A stretch of DNA of 64,000 nucleotides from Emiliania huxleyi CCMP1516 (taxonomy: Eukaryota). The notes beneath the pieces were generated by a model. That model did not search any database and was not told where the DNA came from. It saw nothing but the letters and a program-made list of their open reading frames with translations. Every line of letters begins with the position of its first letter. Position 1 is the first letter of the stretch. Of this stretch, positions 29,638 through 62,800 are shown in pieces. Location of the stretch: contig NW_005201287.1 of the NCBI RefSeq assembly GCF_000372725.1, positions 326,986 through 390,985 on the forward strand, written 5' to 3'. The position numbers were made by a program, and so were the translations under genes.

Positions 29638-29937
29638 ACAACACTGGGCACGGGACTGGCGCGCACTGGCACTAACACAGGTACACCACGGGAGCCGCCT
29701 AAGCGACTCCTGCGAGGGTGGCGAGGCACTTAGCTCCGTGCATCCGCCCACCCCCGCCACAGGCAAGCTCATTCACGACCTGCTCTGCGATGGCCGTGTG
29801 AAAAGAGCTGAAAAAGAGCTGAAGCACACACGTCGCCGCCGAGTCGCTCGCGGCCCTCACGCACAACGCCCTCCGGCGAGGTCGGCCACTTGCAGCGGAA
29901 ACTCGAGGTCAAACCTGGCGCGAAGGCGTCTGCGACA

Positions 29938-31851
29938 ATGGAAAAAACGCCGCGCAGTGACCACCAGCCTCCGGCTCTCGTGCTCTACCTCCTCACCGAC
30001 CAGCAGGCCCTCTGGACCGTGTCGGGCATCTACCGCCTCGCACGGCGCGGCGGTGAGGCCTCGCTCTCGGCCACGGCGGACTTTGGGTGGCGCGAGCCGC
30101 CGGTCGCGACGCCGCACCACGACCGGCTGCTGCGCGAGGGCGCCTTCTTCGCCAACTTCCACGTCTCGGGCCTCTGGTGCGTGCCGTCACGCGGCGCGCT
30201 CATGACGTCACGGTCAGTCTCGCGGCTTTCGCGGGGTGAGGGAGGGCCTGGCAGCGGCGCAGAGGGCAGCTCGAGCGTGATCGGCGGGTGCCTGCACGCG
30301 CGCACGCCGACGATGGGCGCTGCCTTCCGCGCGGCCGGCTACGCCACCGCATACGTCGGCAAGTGGCACCTGGCCGCGGGTTGCAACAGCCGGGCGGCCG
30401 AGGAGGCGGCAGCGCCAGAGGCGATGCCTCGCGGGACAAACGGCTTTGATCACACCCGGCACATGCTCGCGCTCGGTCACTACAAGACGTTGGTCGACGT
30501 GGACGAGCAGGGAGGCCGCCTCCCGTCGCTGCGGCGCTGGCAGGGAGGCTCGTGCAGCCGCAAGCCCGTGCGGTGGCTCAAGCGCTCGCGCGCCCCCTCC
30601 CCCCTCTCCGACACGAGCATCCACCTGGCCGCCTCAATGGACGTGCCCTGCGGCGAGGGCGCCAGAGCGCACTACTACACGCGTGCGGCGGCGCGGTGGG
30701 CGGGCAGGCTGATCGAGGAGTCGCTCCTCGACGCGAGGAGGAGTAGCGCGGGCGGCGCGGGCAAGAGGAGGCTCTTCCTCGTCCTCTCCCTCGCCGACCC
30801 CCACCAGCCATACGCCACCCTCCCCGATGCGGCGGCGCCCTTCGCTGCGGCGGCGGCGCGGCGGCCGCAGTCGTCGCTGCGGCCAGCGGGGGAGGCGCTC
30901 GCCGCCGTGCAAGTCGGTGCGCGGAAGCAGCTGCACCCGCCGCACGATCGCGCCTTCTGGGAGGGCGGCCGCTACCGCGACGTCGTGGCAAACTACCTCG
31001 GGATGGTGGCGCTGATCGACGAGGCGCTCGGCGAGCTGTCCGCCCTCGCCCTGCGGGTTGGTAACTCGACGCTGACGGTGGTCAACTCGGACCACGGCGA
31101 GATGCTCGGCGCGCACGCGCAGATGGGCAAAGGCACCATGTACGACGGCGCCCTCCGGGCGCCCCTCCTCGTGCACTGGCCTGGCCGCGTCGCCGCGCGC
31201 CGCATGGTGGGGGAGATGGCGTGCTCGCTCGACGTCTGGCCGACCCTGGCCGGGCTGATCGGCTTGCCCGCGCTCCGTCCCGCAGCGACCGACGGCGTCG
31301 ACATGCACGCGCTGCTGCTGCCGGCGCGACGCCGCCGCGGCGTGTGGGCGCGCCCCGACGTGAGGATCATCGACGCCGTCTCTGCCAACGCGCAGTTTGG
31401 CACGCTCGGGGTGGCGACGCGCCGGTGGTGGCTCTCCCTCGAGGCACCGGCGTCGGTCCGCCAAAAGTACCGCCTCTGCAAGCCTGGTGATGCTCGGTGC
31501 ACCAAGACTGCTCTTGGCGCGCATATCACGACCAACGGCTCGCGCGCCGACGCCTCCCACCGCCTGCGGCTCGAGGAGATGGGGGCGGCCGGCCTCTGTC
31601 GGCTGTGGGATCGCGCCGCAGACCCGACGCAGCAGACCGACCTCTGCGCGCGCCCCGAGGCGGCGGGTGTGGTGCGGGGCCTGCTGCGGGTGCTGAGGGA
31701 GCACCTGGAGGAGAGGCTGCCCGGCCACCCCGCCCTGACGGCGCACTGGTTCAAGCGGCGCCTCAACTCGAGCCTTTTGCACGCCGCTCAACTTGACCCC
31801 TCCCGCCTCCCGCATGACCCCTCCCGCCTCCCGATTGCAACCCCCGCTTGA
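29938..31851 (+). CDS. Formylglycine-dependent (type I) sulfatase, intronless; start uncertain
   Basis: LYLLTDQQ, TPHHDRLLREG..F, CVPSRGALMT (CxPxR), GYATAYVGKWHL, PHQPY, NSDHGE, PLLVHWPG, LDVWPTL. Confidence 0.92.
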   Translation: MEKTPRSDHQPPALVLYLLTDQQALWTVSGIYRLARRGGEASLSATADFGWREPPVATPHHDRLLREGAFFANFHVSGLWCVPSRGALMTSRSVSRLSRGEGGPGSGAEGSSSVIGGCLHARTPTMGAAFRAAGYATAYVGKWHLAAGCNSRAAEEAAAPEAMPRGTNGFDHTRHMLALGHYKTLVDVDEQGGRLPSLRRWQGGSCSRKPVRWLKRSRAPSPLSDTSIHLAASMDVPCGEGARAHYYTRAAARWAGRLIEESLLDARRSSAGGAGKRRLFLVLSLADPHQPYATLPDAAAPFAAAAARRPQSSLRPAGEALAAVQVGARKQLHPPHDRAFWEGGRYRDVVANYLGMVALIDEALGELSALALRVGNSTLTVVNSDHGEMLGAHAQMGKGTMYDGALRAPLLVHWPGRVAARRMVGEMACSLDVWPTLAGLIGLPALRPAATDGVDMHALLLPARRRRGVWARPDVRIIDAVSANAQFGTLGVATRRWWLSLEAPASVRQKYRLCKPGDARCTKTALGAHITTNGSRADASHRLRLEEMGAAGLCRLWDRAADPTQQTDLCARPEAAGVVRGLLRVLREHLEERLPGHPALTAHWFKRRLNSSLLHAAQLDPSRLPHDPSRLPIATPA

Positions 31852-32999: not shown

Positions 33000-33645
33000 A
33001 AGCTGCGCAACCATGCGCATACCGCACCGATTGGCAGCCAGCCGCGCGCAGCGACGATATATGATGGGAAGCCTTAGAATGCGCCGGCACAATCTCGAGG
33101 TGTCCCCGCGACGGCGCTACTCCTACTCTACTGTCTGTACGGCAACACGTAGGTTGTAGATTTGCGTCATGAGAGACTCTCTCCTCTGTGTGTCTGTGCA
33201 CCGCGCGTCTTGTCTCTCGTTGTATCTTTCCGTTTCTTTTGGTGCGCACGGCTCTATAAGGGTTCCGCGCCGTTTTCTCCAATACTGCCGTTATTAGGCA
33301 CAAACCCGCCTCTGAAGACACATCTGCAAGTCTGGTGCACTGGCAGGAGCCATACTCCCATAGGGGACGCGTGCTCGCTGACTGTAGCCAGCTTCCCGGC
33401 CTCCGGCGTCTACCGGGAGCCTCCCGGACCATCGACCTCGGGAGCTCTCCCGCACCGTTTAAGCGTTTAAGACCGTTTAAGGAATCGGCGGCCCAGGCAG
33501 CCTTAAAATGGGCCATGGCCCCCTTTAAGCCGTTTAAGCCGCAGGCGCCCCAGGGCCCACCCTTTTAAGCCTAGGGGTCCCCTAAGAGAACACACCAGCG
33601 GCCCCCGGTCCCCGCTCCCGGTCCCGCTTGAGCCGCCATGTCCCC

Positions 33646-33980
33646 ATGTTTGGAGCCCACGAGCGAATATTAGAGCTGCTGCTACAGCACGGCGCGGAGG
33701 TCAATCTGCAGAGCAGCAACAGCTACACCGCGCTGATGGGCGCCGCTTTTGGAGGCCACGAGCAGGTGGTCGAGCTGCTGATACGGCACGGCGCTGAGAT
33801 CAACCTGCAGAACAGCGGCGGCTCCACCGCGCTGATGAACGCCGCCAACACGAGCGGTTGGTCTATAGCTGCTAATTCGACAGATCGCGGAGATCAACCT
33901 GCAGAGCGGCTACACCGCGCTGATGCTTGTCGCTGGTGGTGGTCGAGCTGCTGCTGCGACACGGCGCGGAGATCAACCGA
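33646..33980 (+). pseudogene. Degenerate ankyrin-repeat fragment paralogous to the 22358-27223 gene
   Basis: HERILELLLQHGAEVNLQ..YTALMGAAFGGHEQVVELLIRHGAEINLQNSGGSTALMNAA, then frameshifts. Nucleotide sequence closely matches the ankyrin blocks at 22.5-25 kb. Confidence 0.8.
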
Positions 33981-40090: not shown

Positions 40091-40618
40091 CCCCTATTGT
40101 GATGTTGGATCCCTACCTGGGTTTTACCCGGACATGGTGTGTGGTGCCAACACCGTGCTAACGGCTGTGTTAACGCTTGTTTTGGGACTGCCGTTCAACT
40201 GTGTTAACACCGACCTTTGCGCCAAGTGTTGGCACGATCTGTAGTCAGTGCTGCCCCTGAGGTGTGCTAATGTTAGTCCACCAGCCCTAATAGGGCTCGT
40301 CTCAGTCTCGGGCTGGGGCAGCGGCGGGCTAGCAGGGGCGGATTTGGCCCGGCGGCGGGCGGGACTAGCAGAGGGATGGCTCCCACCGGCACTACTGCCC
40401 GTCTCGATCAGCAGTAGCCGTACGGATAATCCTGCCCGGCCCAGACTGGCCCCAGGTCGCAGGAGTCGGGCTTGGGGTCGACCTGAGGCAGGGGAGGGGG
40501 TCCGGCAAGCCCGCTTTCACCGCTGCAATGGGACGCCATTTCCCACAGTGCGGTGTGGGGGTGTGCGAGGAGGGGAGGGCCAGTGCGGAGGGGGCGGGAG
40601 AGGGGGAGAGGCGCGCAC

Positions 40619-43600
40619 CCAGATGCCTCCGTCCACGCGCACCAGGTTGGGCATCGTCAGAGTGGCGAGGTTGCGGTTGCCCGACACCTGTCGCGGTGGC
40701 GAGGGGCGCGGGGCTGCCTGGGCAGGGTGCGGTGTAGGGCGGTGCGAGGAGGGGAGGCAGTGCGGAGGGGGCGGGAGGGAGAGGCGCGCACGTGGATCTC
40801 TCCGCCCACTGGTGGCCAACCCCAACTCGCTCGGTGCAATTCCACCAGGTTGTTCATCGTCAGAGAGGTGAGGTTGGGGTTGTACTCCACCTGCCGCGGT
40901 GGCGAGGGCGCGGGGCTGGGCAGCGAAGCGGAGGAGGGGTGTGCGCGAGGCAGTTCGGGTCGAAGGAGCGGGAGAGAGGGGGGGGAGGCGCGCACCAAGA
41001 TGTTTCCCCCCACCACGCGCACCAGGTTGTTCATCGTCAGAGAGGCGAGGTTGGCGTTGGCCTGCACCTGTCGCGGTGGCGAGGGGCGCGGGGCTGGGCA
41101 GCGGTGCGGTGCAGGTCGCTGTCGCGGTGGCGAGGGCGCGGGGGAGGGGGGGCAGTGCGGAGGGGCGGGAGAGGGAGAGAGGCGCGCACGTAGAGGCCTC
41201 CGATCCTCACTTCCCGCAGGTTGTTCATCGTTAGAGAGGTGAGCTTGGGGTTGTTAAACACCTGCCGCGGTGGCGAGCCGCGGTGGCGAAGGCGCGGGGC
41301 TGGGCAGCGAAGCGGAGGAGGGGTGTGCGCGAGGAAGGGGGGCAGTTCGGATCGAAGGAGCGGGAGAGAGGGGGAGAGGCGCGCACGTTGATGCCATTGA
41401 TGCGCTCCAGGTTGTTCATCGTCAGCGAGGCGAGGTTGGCGTTGTTCTCCACCTGTCGCGGCGGCGAGGGCGGGGGGCTGGACAGCGGTGCGGTGCGCGA
41501 GGAGGGGAGGCACAGTGCGGAAGGAGCGGGAGAAACTGAGGGGGAGAAGCGCGCACGTAGATATCCCCGAACTCGGAGGGGAACGGCATCACTTCCCGCA
41601 GGTTGTCCATCGTCAGCGAGGTGAGGTTGGGGTTGCGCGTCACCTGTCGCGGTGGCGACGGCGCGGGGCTGGGCAACGGTGCGTTGTGGGGGTGTGCGGC
41701 AGGGGAGGCTGTGCAACCAACGGGGCGGGAGGGAGAGGCGCGCACGGAGATGTCTCCGACCACGTCCTCCAGGTTGGGCATCGTCAGAGTGGCGAGGTTG
41801 GGGTTGTACTCCACCTGTCGCGGTGGCGAGGGAGCGGGCTGGGCAGCGGTGCGGTGTAGGGCGGTGCGAGGAGGGGAGGCAGTGCGGAGGGGGCGAGAGG
41901 GGGAGAGGCGCGCACGGAGATGTCTCCCCCCACGTCCTCCAGGTTGTTCATCGTCAGCAAGGCGAGGTTGTCGTTGTGCGACACCTGTCACGGTGGCGAG
42001 GGGCGCGGGGCTGGGCAGAGGCGCGGTGCGTGGAGGGCGGTGCAAGGAGGGGCGGCAGTGCGGAGGGGCGGGAGAGAGAGAGGCGCGCACGTCGATGCCT
42101 CCGCCCACGCCCCGCAGGTGGTTCATCGTCAGCGAGACGAGGTTGTCGTTGGTCTTCACCTGTCGCGGTGACGAGGGCGCAGGGCTGGGCAACGGTGCGG
42201 TGTAGGGCGTTGCGAGGAGGGGAGGCAGTGCGGAGGGGGCGGGAGGGAGAGGCGCGCACGGAGATGTCTCCGACCACGTCCTCCAGGTTGTTCATCGTCA
42301 GAGAGATGAGCTTGGGGTTGTACTCCACCTGTCGCGGTGGCCGGGGAGCGGAGCTGGGCAACTGTGTGCGGTGTAGGGCGGTGCAAGGAGGGGAGGCAGT
42401 GCGGAGGGGCGAGAGGGGGAGAGGCGCGCACGTCGATGCCTCCGCCCACGCCCCGCAGGTGGTTCATCGTCAGCGAGACGAGGTTGTCGTTGGTCTTAAC
42501 CTGTCGCGGTGGCGAGGGCGGGGGGCTGGACAGCGGTGCGGTGTAGGGCGGTGCGAGGATGGGAGGCAGTGCGGAGGGGCGAAAGAGGGGGAGAGGCGCG
42601 CACGTCGATGTCTCCGACCACGTCCTCCAGGTTGTTCATCGTCAGAGAGATGAGCTTGGGGTTGTACTCCACCTGCCGCGGTGGCGGGGGAGCGGGGCTG
42701 GTCAGCGGTGCGGTGGAGGGCGGGAGAGGGGGAGAGGCGCGCACCCAGATGCCTCCGTCCACGCGCACCAGGTTGGGCATCGTCAGAGTGGCGAGGTTGT
42801 GGCTGGCCACCACCTGTCGCGGTGGCGGGGGAGCGGGGCTAGGCAGAGCGATATGGTGTAATGCGGTGCAAGGAGGGGAGGCAGTGCGGAGGGGCGGGAG
42901 GGGGAGAGGCGCGCACGAAGATGCGCCCGCTCACGTTCACCAGGTTGTCCATCGTCAACGAGGCGAGGTTGGAGTTGCTGTACACCTGTCGCGGTGGCGA
43001 GGGCGCGGGGCTGGGCAGCGGTGCGGTGCAGGGCGGCGCGAGGAGGGGAGGCAGTGCGGAGGGGGCGGGAGGGGGGAGAGGCGCGCACACCCCGATGCCT
43101 CCGAACCTTCCCCCTCGGGGTCCCCCGCCCGCGTACACCAGGTTGGGCATCGCCAGCGAGCCGAGGTTGTTGTTGACCGCCACCTGTCGCGGTGGCGAGG
43201 ACGCGCGGCTGCGGTGTAGGGCGGTGCAAGGAGGGGAGGCAGTGCGGAGGGGCGAGGGGGGGAGAGGCGCGCACGTCGATGTCTCCCCCCACGCCCCGCA
43301 GGTTGTTCATCGTCAGAGTGGCGAGGTTGAGGTTGAACCACACCTGTCGCGGTGGCGAGGGAGCGGGGCTGGACAGCGGTGCAGTGCAGGGCGGTGCGAG
43401 GAGGGGAGGCAGTGCGGAGGGGCGAGAGGGGGAGAGGCGTGCACGGTGATGTCTCCCCCTACGTCCTCCAGGTTGTTCATCGTCAGCAAGGCGAGGTTGT
43501 CGTTGTGCGACACCTGTCACGGTGGCGAGGGGCGCGGGGCTGCCTGGGCAGGGTGCGGTGTAGGGCGGTGCGAGGAGGGGAGGCAGTGCGGAGGGGGCGG

Positions 43601-44873
43601 GAGGGAGAGGCGCGCACGGAGATGTCTCCGTACTCCACGTGCAACAGGTTGTTCATCGTCAGCGAGATGAGCTTTTCGTTGTGCTCCACCTGTGTCGCGG
43701 TGGCGACGGCGCGGGGCTGGGCAACGGTGCGTTGTGGGGGTGTGCGGCAGGGGAGGCTGTGCAACCAACGGGGCGGGAGGGAGAGGCGCGCACGGAGATG
43801 TCTCCGACCACGTCCTCCAGGTTGTTCATCGTCAGAGAGATGAGCTTGGGGTTGTACTCCACCTGTCGCGGTGGCGGGGGAGCGGGGCTGGTCAGCGGTG
43901 CGGTGTAATGCGGTGCGAGGAGGGGAGGCAGTGCGAAGGGGCGAGAGGGGGAGAGGCGCGCACGTCGATGCCTCCGCCCACGCCCCGCAGGTGGTTCATC
44001 GTCAGCGAGACGAGGTTGTCGTTGGTCTTCACCTGTCGCGAGGGCGGGGGGCTGAGCAGCGGTGCGGTGTAGGGGTGTGCGGCAGGGGCGGCAGTGCGGA
44101 TGGGCGGGAGAGGGGGAGAGGCGCGCACCAAGATGCCTCCGTCCACGCGCTCCGGCTTGGGCATCGTCAGAGTGGCGAGGTTGGGGTTGTTCGTCACCTG
44201 TTCGCGGTGACGAGTGAGCGGTGCGGTGCAGCGGTGCGGTGCAGGGGTGTGCGGAGTGGAGGCGGTGCGGAGGGGGAGAGGCGGGGGGGAGAGGCGCGCA
44301 CACCCAAATGTCTCCGCGCACGTCCGCCAGGTTGTTCATCGTCAGAGAGATGAGCTTGGGGTTGTACTCCACCTGCCGCGGTGGCGAGGGGCGCAGGGCT
44401 GGGCAGCGGTGTGGTGGAGGGCGGTGAGGGGAGGGGGGGCAGTGCGGAGGGGGCGGGAGAGGGAGAGAGGCGCGCACGTTGATGGTCCTGCCAACGTTCT
44501 CCAGGTTGTTCATCGTCAGCGAGGTGAGGTTGGGGTTGCGCGTCACCTGCCGCGGTGGCGAGGGGCGCAGGGCTGGGCAGTGGTGCGGTGCAGGGCGGTG
44601 AGGGGAGCGGAGGGCCAGTGCGGAGGGGGCGGGAGGGGGAGAGGCGCGCACCAAGATACCCCCGAGCACGTCCCGCAGGCTGGGCAGGTTGACGTCTCCG
44701 CTTGCGTCGCCGTCAATCAAACTGCCGGTCACCGTTTGACACCCCTGCCGAAGCGCATCTGCCAGAAAGCGGTTTCCCTTACACACGACGGCAGGCGTCG
44801 CCACTTGGGCGGGAGCAAAGTTCGGCCCGCGTCCGGTCGGCAGCGCCAGGTTTGCATTCAGCACAGCCAACAT
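40619..44873 (-). CDS. Receptor-L-domain-like leucine-rich repeat protein, 1 leader exon + 23 single-repeat phase-0 exons; 3' end not found
   Basis: Leader exon 44652-44873 (..GCQTVTGSL....VNLPSLRDVLGGIL, an L-domain-type start). Then exons of 66-99 nt with consensus VxxNxxLxxLTMxNLxxVxGxI, each bounded by ..ccaccgcg(a/g)cag| and |gtgcgcgcctctccc. Confidence 0.85.
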
Positions 44874-45834
44874 GAATGACGGCGGCCTCTTTCGCACGAG
44901 AGAGAAGCCGAGAATAAAGAATTTATCCTCGAAGGCGGTCGCATGACACGATTCACGCGACAGGCGAGGCGCGGGCGACGGCTTCCTCAGAAGCCGTCGC
45001 CCGCACCACAGGAGCAGTCACACCACTCCCACTCCGGCGCCCACCTACTCTTCACCCCGACATCCCCACCCCACCCCACAACCCCGCCCCCCCCCCGACC
45101 CGAGCAACCCCGCCCCAACCCGACCCGACCCGATCCACCCCGCCCCGCCCCGCCCCGCCCCCCCCACCGGACCAACCCGCGAGCCGCTCCCGGCTCCGCC
45201 CCTCGCCCAATCCCCACCCGCGCCTGCGCCTGCCACCCGCGCCGCCTCCCCGACGCGCGCACGCGACGCCAGCCACCTCGCCCGCCGCCCCGCCCGCCGC
45301 CCGCCGCCTCGCCCGGCCTTCGCGCCCGAGAATAAAAAAAATTACAACAACTCACTCGCACAACACTGGGCACGGGACTGGCGCGCACTGGTACTGACAC
45401 AGGTACGGTGCGAGAATAAAGAATAGGATCGCCTAGTGTGGAGACGCCGTGTACCGTGGGGCCTTGTTGTCCCAGCACGGGAGAGTACCCGTGTGGACCG
45501 GAGGTAACAGCAGCAGCAGCAGCAGCTGGCGCAACACTGGGCACGGGACTGGCGCGAAATGGCAGTAACATGGACACGGGGGCGCGCGTCACCGAGGCGG
45601 ACTGCAAGGTCGCCTCCAACTAATAATAATAATACGCGCCTGTGCGCTGCGTGGCGCGGCCGCGCCCGCGCGCCGCGCGCCGCGGGCGTGGCTTGCCGGG
45701 GCCCGTGGCGTAAACTCTGTCTGTCATGTGCACATCAACATGTACATACATGTACATGTTGTTGTTGTTGCAATAAAAATAATACGGGCCCAGACCAACA
45801 AAGGCGCGCGCACAGACCGCGGCGCAGCAGCAGC

Positions 45835-46159: not shown

Positions 46160-48383
46160 TCACTTTCCGCCCACCATCTTGCGCGCGGCAAAGACGGCAC
46201 CCGCCAGGGCGGCCACGGCGGCAGCGAGCTCGAGCGAGGAGAGTGGCTCGACCACCTGTTCCAGACGAGACGACGAGACGCATTTGCGGGCCAAGTAGGG
46301 GGCGGGTGGGCGGGGTGGGTGGTGGTGGTGGGTGGTGGTGGTGGGGGGGTGGGGGGGGGGGGTGGGGGGGGGGGCTCCTCGCCATCGATGTAATGCACCC
46401 CCTTTTGGGTTCGCGGCCGCCCCGAAAATGCGGCCCGAGGAAGGGGCAGGCCGCCCCGACAAGCGGTACAAGGTACTTGTTGGCGGCCACGACAGCCGCG
46501 CTGTTGTAACAAGGCGCAACCCCTTCGAACAACGGCCAGGCGCGGTACTTGGGGAGGGGGGTTTGGAGCCCCTCGGGCCAGAACCTTTGAAAATTTTAGG
46601 ACCGCCCCCNNNNNNNNNNNNNNNNNNNNNNNNNNNNNNNNNNNNNNNNNNNNNNNNNNNNNNNNNNNNNNNNNNNNNNNNNNNNNNNNNNNNNNNNNNN
46701 NNNNNNNNNTTTTTTGGGGGGGTGAGGCGCGCGCACACACACGCCTGCACGAGCGCGCCCGCGGCCGCGAGCCAGACCGTCTCGCCGACGGCAACCTCGG
46801 ACGCCTGCTTGAGCGCCTTTGCCGGGCCGGCGGGCAGCTTGTGCGTCGGGGTGAGCGTGACCGTCGCCGTTGCGGTGGCGAGCGAGAGGAAGGCTGCCTT
46901 GGCGGACGGGTCGGCCAGCGAGAAGGAGGAGACGGTGTCGAGGCCGAGGGTGCCTAGTATTAGTAAGTAGCGACAGTGTTAGACCAAGCCCCCAACTCCC
47001 CGCTCGTAAATCGAGCGTACCGTCGGCCGCCGCCGCGAGGATCGAGTCGCCGGCGGAGAGGGAGGAGAGGGGGACGGTCTCGCCGTCGGCGCGCTGCACC
47101 ATTGCCGAGCTCGGGAAGCACGGCGCCGGGTCCGTGGCTTGCGGGTCCACGCCAAGTGGAGGCGAGGGCGAGGCCGACGGCGGCGGCGGGGACGGCGGGG
47201 CCAACGGCGGCGGCGGCGAGGGCGAGGTAGATGGCGGCGACGGGGGCGTCGCCGGCGGCGGCGGCAGTGACGGCCGCGGGGACGGCGGCTGCGGGGACGG
47301 CGAGGCCGGCGGCGGGGACGGCGAGGCCGAAGGTGGTGGCGGCGGGAGCGGCGGCGGGGACGGCGAGGCCGATGGCGGCGGCAGGGAGGGCGGAGCCGGC
47401 GGCGGCGGCGGGGAGGGCGAGGCCGGCGGCGGCTTGGGCGCCTTGTCCGGAGAGTAGGGAGGCGATGCCGGCGGACAGGTTTTGACGATCGTGGCCACCG
47501 CCGGGAAGTCGTTGGCCCCAATCCTGACGGACTCGCCGCACGCAAGGAGGACCTTCGTGATGTCGGTTCCGCCGAAGACGTCCTGCAGCGCGGGCGGTGC
47601 GTGGCGGCTGGCGTGGGGTGTCGGAAGAAAGCGGGAGGGGAGGAGGGGGGGGGGCGCACATCGCCCATGTCGAGTGTTGTTGCGTTGGTCAGGTCGAGGG
47701 TGCCGGTGAGCTTCGTGCAGCCGTAGAAGGCCCAGTTTCCAATGTCGAGGCTCGACCCGAAGGTGACGGAGGTGATGCCGGTGTTAAGGTAGAAAGCTTT
47801 CTGCAGCGATAGGGCGGGGGGCGTGGCGGCTCGCGTTTGGGCGTCGGGAGAAAGCGGGAGGGCAGGGGGCGGAGCGCGCACAGTGCCGATGGTGAGGCGG
47901 TTGGTTGCGACACTCAGGTCGAGGTTGCCGGCAAGCGTCGAACCGTCAAAGGCGTTCGCGCCGATGTTCTCGAGGCTCGACCCGAACGTGACGGACTTGA
48001 CACCGATGTAGAATCCATCCGAAGGGGTCCCCACATAGCGACCTCTGTTGAAACCATTGCACTCTTGAAAGGCCCCCTGCGAAGCAAGGGAGTGCGGGTC
48101 CCGGTGTGGAGCGCGCCGGACGAGCGCGGGGAGTAGCGAGTGCTGCTTTTGAGCTGGATGGGCGGGCGCACCGGGGGAATGGAGATCTCGGACGAGCAGT
48201 CGAGGTGTCCACTCTCGTCGATACCGCCGTTGCAGATATTCTCCTCGCAAGGTGTTTGGGCGAACACGCCTGCGGCACACGCAGCAGGGGGTGATCCACG
48301 CGGCTGCTGGAGGTGGGATCTGGAGGTGGGCAAGGTTACGCACGGCGTGCGCAGCTGACGAGCAGCAGGAGGAAGCGCTTCAT
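46160..48383 (-). CDS. Surface protein: signal peptide, BspA-type LRRs, Ser/Pro-rich stalk, Hedgehog-type Hint domain, C-terminal TM helix; spliced, spans a gap
   Basis: Signal MKRFLLLLVSCA. LRRs VKSVTFGSSLENIGANAF and ITSVTFGSSLDIGNWAFYGCTKL. (SPSPPPP)n stalk. Hint start PCFPSSAMVQRADGETVPLSSLSAGDSIL and block-B VTLTPTH. Last exon LELAAAVAALAGAVFAARKMVGGK*. Confidence 0.8.
46610..46709. other. Assembly gap (100 N)
   Basis: N run with low-quality flanks. Confidence 0.99.
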
Positions 48384-53883: not shown

Positions 53884-56800
53884 TCAAACGTACTGGCTCG
53901 CCGTGGCCCCGTCGTCCGCCGGGCCGCTGCTGGTCAGCTCGATGCTGCCCCTGTCGCCGCTGGCAGCGGAGGCGGGCGGGGGCGCGCGGGAGAGGGCGGC
54001 GTCGGCGGCGGCTGAGCCCGCGATGGCGAGGAAGACCGACTCGAGCGAGGGCTGCGTCGCCGAGTAGTCCAGCACGCCCAGGGCGCTCTTGGCCCCCTCC
54101 ATCTGCTCGAAGATGTCGTGCAGCAGCACGCCTGGCTCGCAGCGGGAGGACGGGGCGTGAGGCGCCGCGCCACTCCGTGGGTACGACGTGGAAGGCTGAG
54201 GACAGCTCGTTCTCAGACGGTCTACTCTCTGCTCCTCTCGGCTCGTCTCGGCGCGCCGCTCGGCAGCTCATACTTGGACCTGCCCGCCACGTGCTCGATC
54301 AGCCTCGCGCCGGGGAAGAGGCGGCACACGCCCTCGTGCGCCTCCTCGCCGCCTCCACCTCTGCCTCCTCCGCCGCCTCCGCCTCCGCCGCCCGCCGCCT
54401 CGCCCCCCACGCGCAGCTCGAGCGTGTACCCTCCGCCGTACTTCGACTTGAGGTGCTGCTGGCCGCCGAGGCAGCGCAGCCGGCCTGCGCCGTGGAGGAG
54501 GGCGGTCTCTTCCGGGCGCACTCAGAGGCGTGGAGCGGACGGCGTTCGACAACTGAGCACAGCTGACCACGTCGTCTCGAGTGCTAGTTTGACCGAAGAG
54601 CACGTGTTCAAGCATCTGCCCCAGCCGGCCGGCCGCCATCACCCCGACGCGCGAGCAGAGCGCCTCGCACTCCGCCATCGAGTGCGTCGTGAGCACGAGC
54701 GAGCGGCGGGACCTACCGCCGTCACACCGGGCCCGGGGCTGAGAACGCCTCTTGTGGACTCGGCCCAGCACGAGCGAGCGGCATCACCGCTCCGTGGCGA
54801 TGACGTCCCACATGTGTCGCCTGCTCTGCGGGTCCATCCCGCTCGAGGGCTCGTCGAGGAAGCAGACGGACGGGTCGCCCACCAACGCGATGGCGAGCGA
54901 GAGCTTGCGCTTGTTGCCGCCCGAGTAGGCGCCGCACACTCGGTCCGCAAACGGCGTCAGCGTCACCTGCTCGATCAGCGACTGCACGAGGCCGGGGAGG
55001 GCAGCCTCGTCCAGGTTCTTGAGGCGCGCGAACATGGTGAGCAGCTCGCGACCCGTCATGCGCTCGAGGAGCGGGTCCTCCTGCGGGCCACAGGAGGAGG
55101 TGTCTAGGAGGTGTCTAGGAAGTGTCCAGGAAGTGTCTCGAGGAGCGGGTCCTCCTGCGGGCCACAGGAGGAGGTGTCTAGGAAGTGTCCAGGAAGTGTC
55201 CAGGAAGTGTCTCGAGGAGCGGGTCCTCCTGCGGGCCGCAGTAGGAGGTGTCTACGAGGTGTCTAGGAAGTGTCCAGGAAGTGTCTCGAGGAGCGGGTCC
55301 TCCTGCGGGCCACAGGAGGAGGTGTCTAGGAGGTGTCTAGGAAGTGTCCAGGAAGTGTCTCGAGGAGCGGGCTCTCCTGCGGGCAGTAGCCGAGCTGCTC
55401 CCGCACGCGCGGCAGCTGCGTCGCGATGCTGAAGCCGCCCACCCACGCGCCACCCCTCGTGGGCGGGAACTCGCCCGTTAGCATTCCGATCGAGGTCGTC
55501 TTGCCGGCGCCGTTGACGCCGAGCAGACCGAAGCACTCGCCGTCGAGGATGCGCAAGGACAGGTCCGCGACCGCAACCTTGGGCGGCGCCCTGCCCCGCG
55601 CCGCGTACACCTTTTGGAGCCGGTGTGCCACTGCACGCGCGCCGCCCCGCACGCCTCCGCCGCCGCCTTCAACAAGCTCGCCGTGATTAACGATTCATTT
55701 ACTATTATTCATTTACTATAATTAACGATTCATTGCGCCGCCGCCTTCCACGAGATCGCGCACGGCGTCGGCCTCCGCCTGCACGTCTTATTTTCTTTTC
55801 TAATGATGAAGCGCTTGATAATAATTAATAAAAAAAGCGTCGGCCTCCGCCTGCACGTCCGCCTCGACGCAGCAAGCGCCCTCGGAGCGCAGCGCGCGCA
55901 GCGCCGCCTCCTCCGCCGTCCCACCCCGCCGTCGTGCACGCCGCTCGTACAGCACGCAGCCGAGGCCGGCCAGCAGCAGCAGCAGCAGCCCGAGGACGAG
56001 CAAGACGTAGTCGAGCGGCGTCGCCTCCGCCACCACACCTTCCCCGCCGGCGGGCGGCGCGTCGCCCTCGTTGTAGTTGAGCGCCGACTGCACCTCTCTC
56101 TCCGTGGTTCCGGCTGCGGCGACGGCGGTGGCGCCGAGGGCGAGCAGGAGCAGGGCGAGGGCGGAGGCGAGGCCGCAGCCGAGCCTGCTGCGGAAGGAGC
56201 AGGAGAGAGTCTCTCCGCCGAGCACTGCTGCCGCGGCGGCGAGGAGGGCGGAGCGGAAGAGGTAGGAGTACTCCGCGCCGAGGACGAGGGAGAAGAAGAG
56301 AAGCGCCTCGAGTGGGAGGAGGTAGAGCGCGCGCGACACCTCCTCGCTGCCGAAAGGGTCGTGCGGCTGCCCGCCGAGCTCCGCGAAGTACCACTCTTGC
56401 GTGAGAGCGAGCAGGGCTTGCCCGAAGTTGAAGGGCGGGAAGAGGCGGTAGAAGTGGACCAGCGCGCGGTCGGCGTCGACGGTGTTGGGCAGCACCTGCG
56501 GTCCACGTGAGGACGAGTCGTCGCCCTGCCCTCGGCGGTGCCGGCGGTGCCGGGCCGCACCTGCATGATCTGGTGTGCGAGGACCATCACGAAGCCCGTC
56601 GTCAAGTTGAAGACGAGGACGCCGATCTGCGCAGTCGAGTGCGAGAGGAAGAGGTGCGAGTAGCAGTACGCGAGCGGGATCGCCGCGAGGCCATACAACC
56701 ACAGCACGAGCGCCGTCGCGCCCGCCTGGGCCGCATTGCCGACGAAGCCGGGCTCGCCGTAGAGGCCGAAGACGGCCATCACTCCGAGCGAGACGAGGGA

Positions 56801-59800
56801 GGACATGCCTGCGTCCCAGAGGTAGTGGGCGAGCCAGTAGACGACGGGGTTGGTGCCCGAGACGAGCTGCAGGTGCTTCGCCTTGGAGTTTCGCTCCTTG
56901 ACAATGAGGGGCGCGACGGCGGCGGGCGCGTACGAGAGCGGGATGAGCACGAAGATGCCGGCGAGGAAGGCGAGCACCACTTGCACCTGCCGAGAGGGCC
57001 CGAGATGGCCCGAGATGGCCCGAGATGAGCCGAGAGGACCCGAGATTGCCCGAGAGGACCCGAGGGAGGCGAGCACCGCCTGAACCTGCGCCGACTCCAG
57101 CTGAGAATCACTAAGGGGCTCTCTTACATCTGAGCCGCCGGCCTGCGCCGACTGCGCCGCCGTGAGCGGCAGGGGATGGTTGTGCACCCGGTAGTAGGTG
57201 TCGGCTGAGGAGGAGGAGGGAGCGCCGGCGGAGGAGGAGGGAGCGCCGGAAAAGGCGGCGGAGGCGGTCTCGTTGTGGATTAACCGCCACGCCGCGGCGG
57301 AAACCTCCCCGAGCATCGCCGCGTTGGCGTGCGGCGACGACGCGTTGAACAGCACCGTCATCTCCGCCGCGACGCACGCCTCGATGCGGAGGGAGTCGGG
57401 AGGCGGCGCGCCGCTCGCCGAGCCCACGTCCACGTCGGGCAACCTCGACCACTCTGCAGGGTCGCCGAGACCGTACGCCGGCGCGGCGACAGAGATGCCG
57501 CTCTCGGAGAGCGTCACGCGCCCTGCCGACACCGCGACGGGCCCCGCGCCGTCGCTGGCGAAGGTGAGGTTGGGGGCGGAGATGGCGACGGCGGCGCGGG
57601 AGACGCGGATCTCGCCCAGCCGCAGGGTTGGCGAGGTGAGGGTGAGGGTCTCCTCCCCGAGAGGCACGGAGAGGGCGAGGTCGGACGCGTTGAGCAGGGC
57701 GGAGATGTCGATCTCGACGCCCTCGAGGGCGGAGATCGACGCCTCGCCCCCGGCGTGCACGTCGCGCAGGGCGGGCGCCACGCCGCTGAGCTCGAGGACT
57801 GCCCGCTGCTCGAGGGGGAGAGCGCCGAGCAAGCCGAGCAGCGCACCGGTGTCGAGCGGGAGGAGGCTGCCCGCTAGCGCGCCAACCTGCTCGCCGAGGA
57901 GGCCGATGCCTTGCTCGAACGCAAAGCTCCTTGCCAGCTGGCCGTTGACGGTCAGCGGGCAGGAGGGCGGCGCCGGCGGGGCGCCGACCGACCAGGAGGG
58001 GTTGGTGTACGAGGCGCCGGAGGCGGAGGCGGGCGGTGGGGCGGCGGGGTCGGCGGAGGGAGGAGCGAGCTGGCGGCAGAGCGCCTCGATGGTGCCCTCG
58101 AGGTATGCCGTCTCGCGCGTGCCGCCGCCTCCTCCTCCTCCGCCCGCCTCCAGCGAGAATGCGGCCTCGATCGCGGCCGCAAGCGCCTCCGTCGCGCTCA
58201 GCGGAGCGTCCCTCGAGCTGGACGCGACGGCGTCAACGGCGGCGAGGGCGGCGGCGAGGGCTGCCGGGTCGACACGGCTCGTGAGGTTGCCGAGTAGCTG
58301 TCCGGTGAGGATGCCGCCCAGCCCGCCGCCCGCTGCGAGGCCGCCCAAGCTGTCGAGCAGCTGCTGCGCGTCCTGCTCGTCCACCTCGCCGTCGCCATTG
58401 AGGTCGGCGACGCTCGAGTTGCCTCCGCCGAGGGTGAGGTTGGCCGCCGCCGCGAGAGCAGCGAGCTGCTGCGTGACGTCGGCCGGAAGGCTCAGATTCC
58501 CCGCGCCGCCCGGGGGCGACGCGCCGCTGCACCGGAGCAGCCCGAGGGCGACCGCAGCTCGCAATCGTCGCCCGCCGCCAGGGAGAGTCTCGCCGAGTTC
58601 CTCGGCGGAGACGTTGAGCCGGAGGGAGTCCGGGAGGGCGAGGGCGCCCACGCGGACGCACCTCTCGTGCTGACTGTACGTCTCGAGCATGTGCCGCGAG
58701 AGAGCCGCCGAATCGCCTGCCGGGACATGTCGCGGACATGTCGCGGACATGTCGCGGACACGTGCAGAGCGTGTGCCGCGAGAGGGCGCGGAGAGAGGCG
58801 CCTTGCACGCGGTCGAGAGAGAGCACGCTCCGCTCCGCGAGGGCGGCGACGAGCGGGTGCGAGGCGGGAGGCGAGTGCAGGAACTGGGTGGAGTCCGGCC
58901 CATCGCCGCGCGTGTAGAGCGAGGCGTCGAGCAGTATCCTAGACACTTCCGAGACACTCTCCGAGACGCTCTTCTAGGCGCGCGGAGAGGTAGGCGTCGA
59001 GCCGTCTCCTCGGCCCGACGCGCGGGTCGGGGAGGAGGAGGACGAGCATGGTGAGCGCGACGAGCAGTACCTGAGCTCGCGGGCAGCGGCAGCTGAGGAA
59101 GGGCCCCGCGGCGGGCAGGAGGGAGTCGACGTGTCTGCGACGTGTCTGCGACGTGTCTGCGACGTGTCTAGGAAGAAGCACCGGCAGCGCGTGCTGCAGG
59201 AAGAGTCCCTTGCGGTCGCGCTTGGCGCAGACTGCACGCTTCTGGAGCAGCACGCACAACTGCTTGCACGGCGAGGCGGCGCCGCTGCGGCGTGCGCCCA
59301 CGGAGGCGGAGGAAGACCTCCTCCATCGAGGTGAGCGAGACGCCTATTCACAGCAGCAGGGTGTGAAGAGAGGCGGAGGAAGACCTCCTCCATCGAGGTG
59401 AGCGAGACGCCTATTCACAGCAGCAGGGTGTGAAGAGAGGCGGAGGAAGACCTCCTCCATCGAGGTGAGCGAGACGCCTATTCACAGCAGCAGGGTGTGA
59501 AGAGAGGCGGAGGAAGACCTCCTCCATCGAGGTGAGCGAGACGCCTATTCACAGCAGCAGGGTGTGAAGAGAGGCGGAGGAAGACCTCCTCCATCGAGGC
59601 GAGCGAGACGCCTATTCACAGCAGCAGGGTGTGAAGAGAGGCGGAGGAAGACCTCCTCCATCGAGGTGAGCGAGACGCCTATTCACAGCAGCAGGGTGTG
59701 AAGAGAGGCGGAGGAAGACCTCCTCCATCGAGGTGAGCGAGACGCCTATTCATAGCAGCAGGGTGTGAAGAGAGGCGGAGGAAGACCTCCTCCATCGAGG

Positions 59801-62800
59801 CGAGCGAGACGCCGAAGCTCTGCAGGCCGAGCTGCGCCTGGGCCGCCGCGAGGTGGCGCAGGAGCGGGCCGAACGAGGCGGTGGAGGCGAACGGGAGGCG
59901 GAACGAGAGCTCGCCCGCGTGCTGCGAGAGGAGCTCGGCCTCGGGGACGAAGGAGCGGACGGCGGCGCCGACGGCGGTGGCGGAGCAGCTGCCCGGGCCT
60001 GTGCTGAGTGTGAGGGTGTACCCGAGGCCGAAGCGGCTCTTGAGGAAGAGCGAGGAGCCGGCACAGCGCAGCCGCCTAATTAATGACCAATTCATTCTTC
60101 ATTCTTCATTATGAAGTAAAGAGCGAGGAGCCGGCACAGCGCAGCCGCCTAATTAATGACCAATTCATTCTTCATTCTTCATTATGAAGTAAAGAGCGAG
60201 GAGCCGGCACAGCGCAGCCGCCTAATTAATGACCAATTCATTCTTCATTCTTCATTATGAAGTAAAGAGCGAGGAGCCGGCACAGCGCAGCCGCCTAATT
60301 AATGACCAATTCATTCTTCATTCTTCATTATGAAGTAAGGAGCGAGGAGCCGGCACAGCGCAGCCGCCTAATTAATGACCAATTCATTCTTCATTCTTCA
60401 TTATGAAGTAAGGAGCGAGGAGCCGGCACAGCGCAGCCGCCTAATTAATGACCAATTCATTCTTCATTCTTCATTATGAAGTAAAGAGCGAGGAGCCGGC
60501 ACAGCGCAGCCGCCTAATTAATGACCAATTCATTCTTCATTCTTCATTATGAAGTAAGGAGCGAGGAGCCGGCACAGCGCAGCCGCCCTGTCGAGAGGAC
60601 GGCGATGCGGTCGGCGAGCAAGTCGGCCTCGTCCATGTAGTGCGTCGTGAGCACGAGGACCTATTCACAGCAGCAGGGTGTGAAGAGAGCGCTGTTCACG
60701 CCTCGTCCATGTAGTGCGTCGTGAGCACGAGGACCTATTCACAGCAGCAGGGTGTGAAGAGAGCGCTGTTCACGCCTCGTCCATGTAGTGCGTCGTGAGC
60801 ACGAGGACCTATTCACAGCAGCAGGGTGTGAAGAGAGCGCTGTTCACGCCTCGTCCATGTAGTGCGTCGTGAGCACGAGGACCTATTCACAGCAGCAGGG
60901 TGTGAAGAGAGCGCTGTTCACGCCTCGTCCATGTAGTGCGTCGTGAGCACGAGGACCTATTCACAGCAGCAGGGTGTGAAGAGAGCGCTGTTCACGCCTC
61001 GTCCATGTAGTGCGTCGTGAGCACGAGGACCTATTCACAGCAGCAGGGTGTGAAGAGAGCGCTGTTCACGCCTCGTCCATGTAGTGCGTCGTGAGCACGA
61101 GGACCTATTCACAGCAGCAGGGTGTGAAGAGAGCGCTGTTCACGCCTCGTCCATGTAGTGCGTCGTGAGCACGAGGACCTATTCACAGCAGCAGGGTGTG
61201 AAGAGAGCGCTGTTCACGCCTCGTCCATGTAGTGCGTCGTGAGCACGAGGACCTATTCACAGCAGCAGGGTGTGAAGAGAGCGCTGTTCACGCCTCGTCC
61301 ATGTAGTGCGTCGTGAGCACGAGGACCTATTCACAGCAGCAGGGTGTGAAGAGAGCGCTGTCCACGCCTCGTCCATGTAGTGCGTCGTGAGCACGAGGAC
61401 CTATTCACAGCAGCAGGGTGTGAAGAGAGCGCTGTCCACGCCTCGTCCATGTAGTGCGTCGTGAGCACGAGGACCTATTCACAGCAGCAGGGTGTGAAGA
61501 GAGCGCTGTTCACGCCTCGTCCATGTGGTGCGTCGTGAGCACGAGGACCTATTCACAGCAGCAGGGTGTGAAGAGAGCGCTGTTCACGCCTCGTCCATGT
61601 GGTGCGTCGTGAGCACGAGGACCTATTCACAGCAGCAGGGTGTGAAGAGAGCGCTGTTCACGCCTCGTCCATGTAGTGCGTCGTGAGCACGAGGACCTAT
61701 TCACAGCAGCAGGGTGTGAAGAGAGCGCTGTTCACGCCTCGTCCATGTAGTGCGTCGTGAGCACGAGGACCCGGCCGGGCGCCGAGCGCTTCAGCAGTGA
61801 CCAGAGGGACCGGCGGGAGGCCGGGTCCATGCCCGAGGTGGGCTCGTCAAGCAGCACGCAGCGGGAGCCGCCCACGAGCGAGCAGCCCACCGACAGCTTG
61901 CGCCTCATCCCGCCCGACAGCGCGTGCGACCGCGTGTGCTCCTTGTCCGCTAGACCGACCTTGGCCACCATGGCCGCCGACGCGGTAGCGAGCTCGCCTC
62001 GGGGCACGCCCTTGAGGGCCGCGTAGTGCTGCATGTGCTCGGAGACGGTCAGGCTGCGCCAGAGGACGTCATGCTGCGGGCAGATGCCCATCAGCGTGTA
62101 GACGCGCCGCGCGCAGCGGCAGATCGAGAGACCAAACACGTAGCAGTCCCCTCGCGTCGGCGCGTACAGGCCGGTGAGCACGGACAGCGTCGACCTGTTC
62201 ACAGCAGCAGGTGTGAAGAGACGCCGTTCACACCCAAACCGGTGAGCACGGACAGCGTCGACCTGTTCACAGCAGCAGGTGTGAAGAGACGCCGTTCACA
62301 CCCAAACCGGTGAGCACGGACAGCGTCGACGTCTTGCCGGCGCCGTTGTGTCCGAGCAAGCAGGAGATCTGCCTATTAGTTATCAACTCGCTTGTAATCA
62401 ACTATTCATTCGTTGTGGCCGAGCAGGCAGGAGATCTGCCCCGGGTAAAAGGAGAGGTGCAGGTTGTCGACGGCAACCTTGCGCATCTTGCCTCGGCCGT
62501 AAACCTTCGTCAGGCCGACGATCTCGACCGAATCTCCCCCCGCCGCCAGGGAGGGAGGGACCGGCTCAAAGGCGGCGCCCTCCTGCGGGAGAGCCACCTC
62601 TGCGCGCGGCGATTGCAAGGACGGGCACCAAAAGGCGCGGCGCAGGAAGAAGAGCGGGTGGAGGGGTGCGCCGAAGCGAGAGGGGAGGACACGCTCGAGG
62701 TAGAGGGCGAGGGCCTAATTAATTGATGCTTCATGCTTCCTTATGAACTGGAGAGGGGAGGACACGGTCGAGAGGGCGAGGGCCTAATTAATTAGGTATT

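What the first reader, a model, noticed from the sequence alone, without database searches (positions are those of the whole stretch)
40619..44873. One-repeat-per-exon, phase-0 cassette array: a candidate exon-shuffling diversified LRR (L-domain-like) receptor
Seen: no long ORF exists here. The minus strand instead holds 23 micro-exons of 66-99 nt, all multiples of 3, each encoding one VxxNxxLxxLTMxNLxxVxGxI repeat. They sit between mutually homologous ~70-130 nt GT-AG introns (|gtgcgcgcctctccc...ccaccgcgacag|). Cassettes recur in non-tandem order: VKTNDNLVSLTMNHLRGVGGGID at ~43964, 42432, 42091; VEYNPKLISLTMNNLEDVVGDI at ~43794, 42604, 42260; VSHNDNLALLTMNNLEDVGGDI at ~43445, 41916. Some look mosaic: VEYNP-NLATLTMPNL-EDVVGDIS at ~41746 combines halves of other cassettes. 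Variation concentrates at positions 2-3, 5-6 and the loop before GxI, with in-frame insertions (YAGGGPRGGRFGG, VMPFPSEFG, LHRASWGWPPVGG). An intron variant also recurs (43690-43793 ~ 41644-41745). Established: single-exon LRR/TPR shuffling occurs in brown-algal ROCO and NB-ARC genes, and combinatorial exon use occurs in Dscam. Inference: any subset or order of cassettes stays in frame, so this could be a hypervariable recognition protein diversified by recombination through the conserved introns and/or exon skipping. I do not know of this being described for L-domain repeats in a haptophyte.
Basis: partly seen in the sequence, partly recalled or inferred. Interest (0 to 1): 0.9.

Follow-up and report, generated by a model that had tools for sequence, protein, structure and literature searches.

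The report
Scrambled one-repeat exons in coccolithophore protein
A marine alga, most likely the coccolithophore Emiliania huxleyi, transcribes and splices a gene built from 23 tiny in-frame exons, each one rung of a predicted insulin-receptor-like binding surface, and the rungs were likely mixed by short DNA copying events and likely selected for difference, which makes it a candidate variable recognition protein.

Summary
Five runs from four studies are spliced at the predicted GT-AG introns; every listed joint fits genomic order. Relatives place it among receptor L-domain proteins, probably in Emiliania huxleyi.

The scrambling lies in the DNA. Identity tracts between repeats are 55-132 bp, never a whole 170-bp unit, and identical exons sit between unlike introns, which fits short-tract gene conversion. 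The three most variable residues match the insulin receptor's ligand-binding positions, change faster than silent sites, and straddle the exon junction. Near-identical copies of a sister gene differ in cassette content.

Dscam-like skipping is not supported, though contigs cannot exclude it. One intron with an altered donor is retained in all five runs, which would truncate the protein. The ligand is unknown.

The scheme is known from brown-algal ROCO and Tetrahymena LRR genes; the scan noted such layouts in other genomes, none for this fold. I found no report for L-domains or haptophytes. New variant of a known kind; interest 0.6.

The parts
44652..44873 (-). E0: first coding exon (74 aa): possible short signal peptide, Cys-containing N-cap and first repeat
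   Evidence: contig 44649-44887 in X2; E0-E1 joint in X2, X6, X8; N-cap aligns with ErbB2 domain I
44478..44546 (-). E1 repeat exon (69 nt); first 36 nt identical to E18
   Evidence: joints
44304..44372 (-). E2 repeat exon (69 nt); first 46 nt identical to E5/E12/E14
44129..44197 (-). E3 repeat exon (69 nt)
   Evidence: E3-E4 joint in 4 of 4 runs
43964..44032 (-). E4 repeat exon (69 nt); identical to E15, 1 nt from E13
43794..43862 (-). E5 repeat exon (69 nt); identical to E14, 2 nt from E12
43690..43793 (-). Intron I5, a variant that recurs as I17 (41644-41745) with one indel
43618..43689 (-). E6 repeat exon (72 nt)
   Evidence: joints
43514..43617 (-). Intron I6, one substitution from I22 (40688-40791) although the flanking exons are unlike
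43445..43513 (-). E7 repeat exon (69 nt); 2 nt from E16
43344..43444 (-). Intron I7: the only donor without G at +5; retained in RNA contigs; retention would give a 279-aa truncated product
   Evidence: donor count; retained contigs in X2, X7, X10, X6, X8; translation
43275..43343 (-). E8 repeat exon (69 nt)
   Evidence: joint
43091..43183 (-). E9 repeat exon (93 nt, Gly-rich loop insertion)
   Evidence: joints
42917..42985 (-). E10 repeat exon (69 nt)
   Evidence: joints
42745..42813 (-). E11 repeat exon (69 nt); last 55 nt identical to E23
42604..42672 (-). E12 repeat exon (69 nt)
42432..42500 (-). E13 repeat exon (69 nt)
42260..42328 (-). E14 repeat exon (69 nt)
42091..42159 (-). E15 repeat exon (69 nt)
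   Evidence: E15-E16 joint
41916..41984 (-). E16 repeat exon (69 nt)
   Evidence: joints
41746..41814 (-). E17 mosaic repeat exon (69 nt); last 31 nt plus following intron copied with E5/I5 (132-bp tract)
41557..41643 (-). E18 repeat exon (87 nt, loop insertion)
   Evidence: in one spliced contig with E19-E22
41387..41452 (-). E19 repeat exon (66 nt)
41190..41261 (-). E20 repeat exon (72 nt)
40996..41067 (-). E21 repeat exon (72 nt)
40792..40890 (-). E22 repeat exon (99 nt, loop insertion)
40619..40687 (-). E23 last repeat exon (69 nt)
40483..40618 (-). Intron I23 (136 nt): 5' half like the array introns, 3' half unique
   Evidence: joint at 40480 in X2, X7
40408..40482 (-).
   Evidence: same cap in P0001, P0003, P0057

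Best explanation
This is a transcribed and spliced 25-exon gene whose 23 one-repeat exons are predicted to stack into one long receptor L-domain beta-helix that is likely secreted, and whose cassettes were likely scrambled in the DNA by short-tract gene conversion between repeats and likely selected for difference on one binding face. Shown: the exon layout, splicing in genomic order, a patchwork of 55-132-bp identity tracts, and an excess of amino-acid change at repeat positions 23, 2 and 3. Inferred: because exon and intron are both repeated, any point of the 170-bp unit can pair with any other unit or with a sister gene. Short copies then overwrite exons, half-exons or introns without shifting frame, and occasional unequal exchange changes repeat number. 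The intron lies between position 23 and position 1, so each rung of the variable face is made by two neighbouring exons and a change of neighbour makes a new rung. Least certain: the protein binds a changing outside partner (virus, bacterium, grazer or mate), as a soluble binder or decoy, since it has no signalling part.
For: Splicing: 16 of 24 introns are listed as exact GT-AG joints, in 5 runs of 4 studies. Patchwork: all 15 tracts of 55 bp or more are shorter than one unit. E4=E15 and E5=E14 sit between introns 10-15% different; I6/I22 and I5/I17 differ at one place. Exon distance does not follow flanking-intron distance (Mantel p 0.07 and 0.45) or array position (p 0.89). Within-exon recombination test p 0.006. 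Selection: pN/pS 2.25 (bootstrap 1.26-4.56); codon positions 1+2 differ by 0.285, against 0.152 at position 3 and 0.166 in introns. Core positions have pN 0.045, the others 0.45. Positions 23, 2 and 3 have ten amino acids each and omega at the upper bound in 5 of 5 models, with 2dlnL 8-21 against omega 1 in the 3 models so tested. Fold: the model of relative P0001 matches HER2 domain I, IGF1R and insulin receptor at Z 10.2-10.9, rmsd 2.5-3.5, 123-135 aligned; a family profile hits LET-23 and ErbB3 at E 2.5e-8 and 2e-7. The insulin-binding residues in PMC2577065 fall in triads spaced i, i+2, i+3, as 23/2/3 are; the register comes from the ErbB3 alignment. Polymorphism: six proteins with 0-2 differences in their first 350 aa carry four different cassette sets. 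Metagenome copy L001 shares E0 and E1 (95%, 98.6%) but has another second cassette (81% to E2).
Against: Whole-repeat omega depends on the model: 0.91-2.23, and 2dlnL against 1 is only 3.0-4.0 under the two F3X4 models so tested. Strong codon bias, recombination and only 21 short sequences can inflate it. I saw the variable triad before mapping it to the ligand face. Exposed positions of any solenoid vary freely. No second intact allele of this very gene was found; the RNA runs show no exon differences and are probably the same strain. Sister-gene variants come from short-read assemblies and may be chimeras. The spliced protein itself was not folded. Foldseek gave no match at E 0.001, and the top VIA row was an unnamed flagellar doublet chain (Z 12.1), with unrelated beta-helices at Z 9-10. 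The signal peptide is weak, with two Asn where relatives have hydrophobic or small residues, and intron 7 is often retained, so this copy may be partly decayed. No ligand or infection data exist.
Confidence: 0.62

Rival explanations
1. A coding minisatellite under structural constraint only. The array turns over by conversion and slippage like any 170-bp tandem repeat; buried residues and frame are kept, exposed residues drift, and nothing selects for diversity. This copy may be decaying.
For: Omega is 0.91 under GY+F3X4 for the whole repeat and 0.6-1.5 outside the face. Intron 7 has lost the +5 G and is retained in 5 of 5 spliced runs. The signal peptide looks weakened. L001 is a broken copy, and P0005/P0154 are frameshifted in the array. 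The window holds many other repeat arrays.
Against: Exposed codons differ about three times more than silent sites and introns; drift alone would give equal rates. All 25 exons are intact and in frame. The most variable triad has the spacing of a known ligand face.
Confidence: 0.24
2. A Dscam-like system: the cell makes many isoforms from one gene by skipping cassettes in different combinations.
For: All exons are phase 0. A 585-nt contig in X6 has the length of E0 plus E18-E23. Sister protein P0156 lacks exactly one cassette of P0158. The E8-E11 contig is shallower than its neighbours in X2, X7, X8 and X10, a weak hint only.
Against: All 30 listed joint rows fit genomic order or mis-mapping to identical copies. 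E18-E22 lie in one unbranched contig in X2, X7 and X10. E1 and E18 share 36 nt and the two sister cassettes share 15 residues, so assembly collapse explains both shortened forms. In E. huxleyi only 8 skipping events were seen among 535 introns inspected (PMC4028052, passages). Donors and acceptors are near-identical along the array, with no sign of mutually exclusive clusters.
Confidence: 0.08
3. The non-tandem order is a misassembly of a simpler repeat or a mix of two alleles.
For: No laid record spans the whole array. The identical exons are the places where assemblers err. No whole genome was held to check.
Against: Introns differ from each other throughout. DNA-like run X1 has exact pieces of up to 410 nt across exon-intron borders, one spanning E3-I3-E4. 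RNA joints link E3-E4, E5-E6-E7, E8-E11 and E15-E23 in genomic order. The contig shared by E4/E13/E15 is about three times as deep as single-copy contigs (915 vs about 305 in X10), a weak hint of three copies.
Confidence: 0.04

Closest known systems
[quoted passage not shown]
   Same: One repeat per small symmetric exon; intra- and intergenic recombination changes repeat number and sequence; many pseudogenes; diversifying selection reported; proposed pathogen receptors of an alga.
   Different: There: 72-nt phase-2 exons of LRR type, fused to a Roc-COR GTPase or NB-ARC domain, probably cytoplasmic, with spare or inverted exons in introns and splice variants. Here: phase-0 exons of 66-99 nt, L-domain repeats, no signalling domain, likely extracellular, short homologous introns, no spare or inverted cassette in the window, no skipping shown.
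Tetrahymena 90-bp-exon LRR genes (PMC6564038, passages)
   Same: Arrays of one-repeat exons; near-identical exons in scattered positions, explained by ectopic recombination or gene conversion.
   Different: Thousands of genes, exactly 90 bp, phase 2, linked to a LINE-like element. Here a small family, variable loop lengths, phase 0, another fold; no link to a retroelement was tested.
Receptor L-domain proteins (Pfam PF01030: insulin receptor, IGF1R, ErbB/LET-23; E. huxleyi EMIHUDRAFT_193867)
   Same: Cys-capped right-handed beta-helix; relatives hit PF01030; variable residues sit at positions spaced like the insulin-binding triads.
   Different: Animal L domains have about five rungs (recalled) inside a receptor kinase, and in the insulin receptor this face is conserved (PMC2577065). 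Here about 24 rungs stand alone and that face is the most variable part.
Arthropod Dscam (recalled; one passage in PMC11378527)
   Same: Array of homologous in-frame exons.
   Different: Dscam picks among alternative exons by splicing; here the listed joints show exons joined in series.
Lamprey variable lymphocyte receptors (recalled, no call)
   Same: Solenoid binding face diversified by copying repeat cassettes through short shared sequence.
   Different: VLRs are assembled in each lymphocyte from silent flanking cassettes into an incomplete gene. Here the gene is complete, the cassettes are exons, and no programmed or within-clone change is shown.

Membership tests
Receptor L-domain (PF01030) | Pfam match above the curated cut-off | tested here: inconclusive
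   Relative P0002 31.5 bits and P0005 21.8 (cut-off 21.8); P0001 20.8 and P0003 15 fall below; P0009, P0057 and P0087 gave no family. None of the window pieces tried (E0, 8 of 23 single repeat exons, E24 and one read-through frame) hits. The spliced protein was not scanned.
Receptor L-domain (PF01030) | Right-handed beta-helix superposing on IR/IGF1R/ErbB L domains | tested here: met
   On relative P0001 only: pLDDT about 82-94 in most repeat blocks (one block 69), Z 10.2-10.9, rmsd 2.5-3.5, 123-135 aligned; Foldseek ranks the same family first but only at E 0.025.
Receptor L-domain (PF01030) | N-terminal Cys cap of the C-x-x-V-x-G-x-L type | tested here: met
   Present in E0 and aligned to ErbB2 domain I by the family profile.
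Insulin/ErbB receptor kinases | Cys-rich domain, transmembrane helix and kinase | tested here: not met
   653-aa product has four Cys, highest 19-residue hydropathy 1.21, and ends 24 aa after the last repeat.
Exon-shuffled algal/ciliate repeat genes (ROCO, NB-ARC-TPR, Tetrahymena LRR) | One repeat per symmetric exon | tested here: met
   23 of 23 internal exons, phase 0-0.
Exon-shuffled algal/ciliate repeat genes (ROCO, NB-ARC-TPR, Tetrahymena LRR) | Traceable recombination among repeats and differing repeat sets between close copies | tested here: met
   within the gene; between copies (short-read assemblies, chimeras not excluded).
Exon-shuffled algal/ciliate repeat genes (ROCO, NB-ARC-TPR, Tetrahymena LRR) | Positive selection on repeat surface | tested here: inconclusive
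   Strong at positions 23, 2, 3; model-dependent over the whole repeat.
Brown-algal LRR-ROCO | Roc-COR GTPase and 72-nt phase-2 LRR exons | tested here: not met
   No such domain in the spliced product; exons are phase 0.
Dscam-type combinatorial splicing | Many isoforms by alternative exon choice | tested here: inconclusive
   No listed joint needs skipping (30 rows listed, 22 not shown); contigs drop rare forms; two shortened forms are ambiguous.
VLR-type somatic diversification | Programmed change within a clone from silent donor cassettes | not testable with these tools
   Needs long reads from sub-clones; no spare cassette in the window outside the array.

The most novel reading that the evidence does not exclude
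A coccolithophore runs an anticipatory recognition system on the insulin-receptor L-domain fold. A family of secreted and membrane-anchored solenoids shares one intron sequence, so members exchange cassettes by conversion fast enough to make new binding faces within a clonal bloom. Each rung is diversified at the exon junction that splits it, and the products bind or decoy giant viruses or other attackers.
Probability: 0.13. Interest if true: 0.9.

Novelty: new variant of a known kind. Interest (0 to 1): 0.6.

Why it matters
It would extend exon-cassette diversification to a third fold, the receptor L-domain, and to haptophytes, in a likely extracellular protein. It also shows the copying process in unusual detail: tracts shorter than one repeat, exons and introns moved separately, and an intron that splits the predicted binding rung. 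E. huxleyi blooms are ended by giant viruses and strains differ in resistance (recalled; the abstract of PMC8531018 states the viral control of blooms). A variable surface or secreted binder is therefore a concrete candidate that a single 4.5-kb amplicon across strains can test.

Tried and rejected
No whole genome was held, so paralogues could not be counted. No run was on record as RNA; X2, X6, X7, X8 and X10 are taken as RNA because their contigs skip the introns. I laid 6 of the 10 runs listed. X1 has no cover over most of E0, which shows nothing.

Single exons and one read-through frame gave no Pfam L-domain hit. The first alignment was too variable for the search for related loci. A DNA pattern found 1 locus in metagenome contigs. 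E0 found 1 weak 15-residue match in viral contigs (not followed). Three protein searches did not return the spliced product of this gene; two of them scored only the top ~8000 candidates.

My first idea that a mobile element cuts the gene at about 40545 was rejected: RNA joins E23 to a last exon at 40482. The apparent skips 40480-42743 and 42156-44126 and 42669-43961 and 43510-43961 were rejected as mapping to identical copies. Five more rows carry the depth of the E18-E23 contig, whose home lay outside the stretch, and lack splice ends. Introner-like mobile introns were considered, but the window has no copy of this intron outside the array beyond one weak 58-nt match. F3X4 fits on the core columns alone stayed at the start value and were not used.

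Literature searches: 'Emiliania huxleyi' + 'receptor L domain' 0 papers; 'huxleyi' + 'L-domain' 0; 'huxleyi' + 'exon shuffling' 10 papers, none on this by title or abstract start; searches gave no such report in the rows listed. The library lacks most subscription papers and no supplements were read, so a mention elsewhere is possible. Scan notes by sequence and by genome returned nothing.
Full report
1. What is in the sequence. The minus strand holds a first coding exon (E0, 44873-44652), 23 internal exons of 66-99 nt (E1-E23, 44546-40619) and a last exon (E24, 40482-40408). All 24 introns are GT-AG and phase 0. Twenty-three are 72-125 nt and homologous throughout; the last is 136 nt and homologous in its 5' half. 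Joined by coordinates, the exons give one open frame of 653 aa with a single stop at the end. All 7 exons that depart from 69 nt keep frame, while intron lengths are spread 7/8/9 over the three frames.

2. It is transcribed and spliced. Ten runs hold part of the stretch, none on record as RNA; I laid six. X1 behaves as DNA. X2, X6, X7, X8 and X10, from four studies, skip the introns. One search lists 15 of 25 joint rows: 13 at predicted introns and 2 that map to an identical exon copy. One search lists 15 of 27: 8 at predicted introns, 2 to identical copies, and 5 from the E18-E23 contig forced onto look-alike exons. Together 16 of 24 introns are listed as exact joints. I4/I13, I11 and I23 are supported through mis-mapped rows or loose ends; the spliced forms of I2, I7, I12 and I14 are not among the rows shown. 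E18-E22 lie in one unbranched contig in X2, X7 and X10. An X2 contig reaches 44887, 14 nt upstream of the ATG. Exon letters do not differ from the window in these runs, so they are probably the same strain and say nothing on strain variation.

3. One intron is retained. I7 (43444-43344) is the only one of 24 donors without G at +5. It is retained in a contig in all five spliced runs; in X6 one 586-nt contig runs E5-E6-E7-I7-E8 to E11. Retention would shift the frame and end the protein at 279 aa, without the C-cap. That the +5 change causes it is inferred from general splicing knowledge. Intron retention is pervasive in E. huxleyi (PMC4028052, passages), so this need not be regulation.

4. Organism and family. 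Relatives share the N-cap, the repeat and the C-cap but have fewer repeats. One, P0057, is named by its source as E. huxleyi CCMP1516 EMIHUDRAFT_193867, 'Receptor L-domain domain-containing protein'. Two peptides that I read by hand from non-matching contig letters in X2, X8 and X10 occur in P0057 and in no other stored protein. The host is therefore most likely E. huxleyi, and sister genes are expressed. P0009, P0087 and P0155 run on into sequence matching the array introns at the same point of the repeat, P0002 more weakly, so the family likely shares the layout and the intron. N-termini vary by eye: signal-peptide-like in P0005 and P0009, a hydrophobic segment and a Cys-rich module in P0087/P0152 (no Pfam hit for P0087). 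The window's protein has no transmembrane helix, four Cys in the two caps and four N-glycosylation sequons. Its start resembles that of P0009 but is less hydrophobic; secretion is inferred, and no predictor was run.

5. Fold. The spliced protein was not folded. Relative P0001, folded with a 4-sequence alignment, gave mean pLDDT 67 and about 82-94 in most repeat blocks. VIA-align places HER2 domain I, IGF1R, IRR, insulin receptor and HER3 at Z 10.2-10.9, below one unnamed flagellar chain (12.1) and just above unrelated beta-helices. Foldseek ranks insulin receptors first but at E 0.025. A 15-sequence profile hits LET-23 and ErbB3 at E 2.5e-8 and 2e-7. Distant relatives mostly hit PF01030, several with bacterial Ig-like or secretion-tail domains.

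6. How the order arose. All 15 identity tracts of 55 bp or more are 55-132 bp, less than one 170-bp unit, and they end inside exons as well as introns. E4 and E15 are identical between introns 13-15% different; E5 and E14 likewise at 10-15%. I6 and I22 differ at one base while their exons differ at 16-19. Exon distance does not track the upstream intron (rho 0.17, p 0.07), the downstream intron (0.01, p 0.45) or array position (p 0.89). A PHI-like test on 28 informative exon sites gives p 0.006. Simple tandem duplication would carry exon and intron together and leave neighbours most alike. Short-tract conversion fits; the mechanism itself is inferred.

7. Selection. Among 21 distinct exons, with loop insertions left out, pN is 0.278 and pS 0.124 (ratio 2.25, bootstrap over codon columns 1.26-4.56); introns differ by 0.166. 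Maximum-likelihood omega is 1.5-2.2 in three MG models, and 0.9, 1.0 and 2.0 in three GY models, so the whole-repeat result is not robust. Positions 23, 2 and 3 are the three most variable. In the ErbB3 alignment they fall on the strand ending in I-E-K-N. Insulin-receptor surface residues listed in PMC2577065 (passages and Table 2) include Q34/L36/L37, L62/F64/R65, V94/F96/E97 and R118/E120/K121, each spaced i, i+2, i+3 (R65A had no effect and R118 had no data). A triad fixed in advance would rank first to third of 23 with p 0.0006, or 0.0035 among 13 non-core positions, but I saw the variability first and mapped it afterwards. The intron lies between 23 and 1, inside this triad.

8. Variation between copies. 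L001, from a metagenome, shares E0 (95%), I0 (90%) and E1 (98.6%), then has a cassette 92% like E4/E13/E15 and 81% like E2. By eye it is 5'-truncated and frameshifted. For a sister gene, six proteins with 0-2 differences over 350 aa show four cassette sets: four cassettes (P0152, P0158); one cassette fewer (P0156); the first cassette replaced by a near-copy of the second, in two separate contigs (P0159, P0160); and a wholly different array shared with P0087 (P0157). All come from short-read assemblies. The replacement seen twice is the most credible.

9. Skipping. No listed joint needs it. Three loose ends remain: the X6 contig with the length of E0 plus E18-E23, where E1 and E18 share 36 nt; P0156; and the shallower E8-E11 contig, which the tool warns must not be read as expression level. 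Skipping is rare in this species (8 events among 535 introns, PMC4028052; PMC6142364 passages report retention above skipping in nearly all species). Long reads are needed.

10. Verdict. A real, expressed gene and a small family in which one-repeat exons are likely diversified in the DNA. The scheme is that of brown-algal ROCO/NB-ARC-TPR and Tetrahymena LRR genes (PMC3341825 parts 2-3 of 7; PMC11378527 and PMC6564038 passages). The differences are the fold, the phase, the likely extracellular site, the lack of a signalling domain and the lineage. My searches found no report of it; no supplements were read. Dscam, VLR, the role of +5 G and virus resistance among strains are recalled where marked. 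Function is untested. New variant of a known kind, interest 0.6.

Noticed in passing
window 46160-48380, minus strand: Upstream gene with Gly/Thr-rich leucine-rich-like repeats on short exons (47583-47784 is 74% like 47801-48009), a Pro-rich stalk and a segment that by eye resembles a Hint (Hedgehog/intein) domain; no Pfam hit for 46982-47560. It spans an assembly gap. Labels are recalled.
   Followed up: partly
window 22346-27223, plus strand: Intron-free 1625-codon frame with four ankyrin-repeat blocks (units 81-85% alike), a coiled-coil-like stretch, a kinase-like domain and a C-terminal RING-like motif, labelled by eye; another modular candidate sensor 13 kb from the array.
   Followed up: no
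window 912-3332, minus strand: 806-codon frame with several repeats that by eye resemble AP2-type DNA-binding domains.
   Followed up: no
window 29812-31851, plus strand: Sulfatase-like frame of 679 codons, labelled by eye.
   Followed up: no
window 55063-55384 and 59303-62852: Tandem arrays of 67-74-bp units at 86-100% identity, several sharing a core motif; possibly another gene with repeated introns.
   Followed up: no
window 44930-45050: Short repeated element with inverted arms just upstream of the gene; many unrelated contigs end in it and L001 holds a copy.
   Followed up: partly
window 33640-33980, minus strand: Isolated ankyrin-repeat fragment about 75% like the 22-25 kb gene, apparently broken.
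   Followed up: no
X1 on window 43273-44676 (table 5c): A DNA contig joins an E0-like exon with a different last rung to an array-type intron, pointing to a further family member in that genome.
   Followed up: no
P0001, P0005, P0006, P0030: A Cys-containing module of about 50 aa precedes the L-domain in P0001 and P0005 and recurs in tandem in unrelated proteins; no Pfam family covered it.
   Followed up: no
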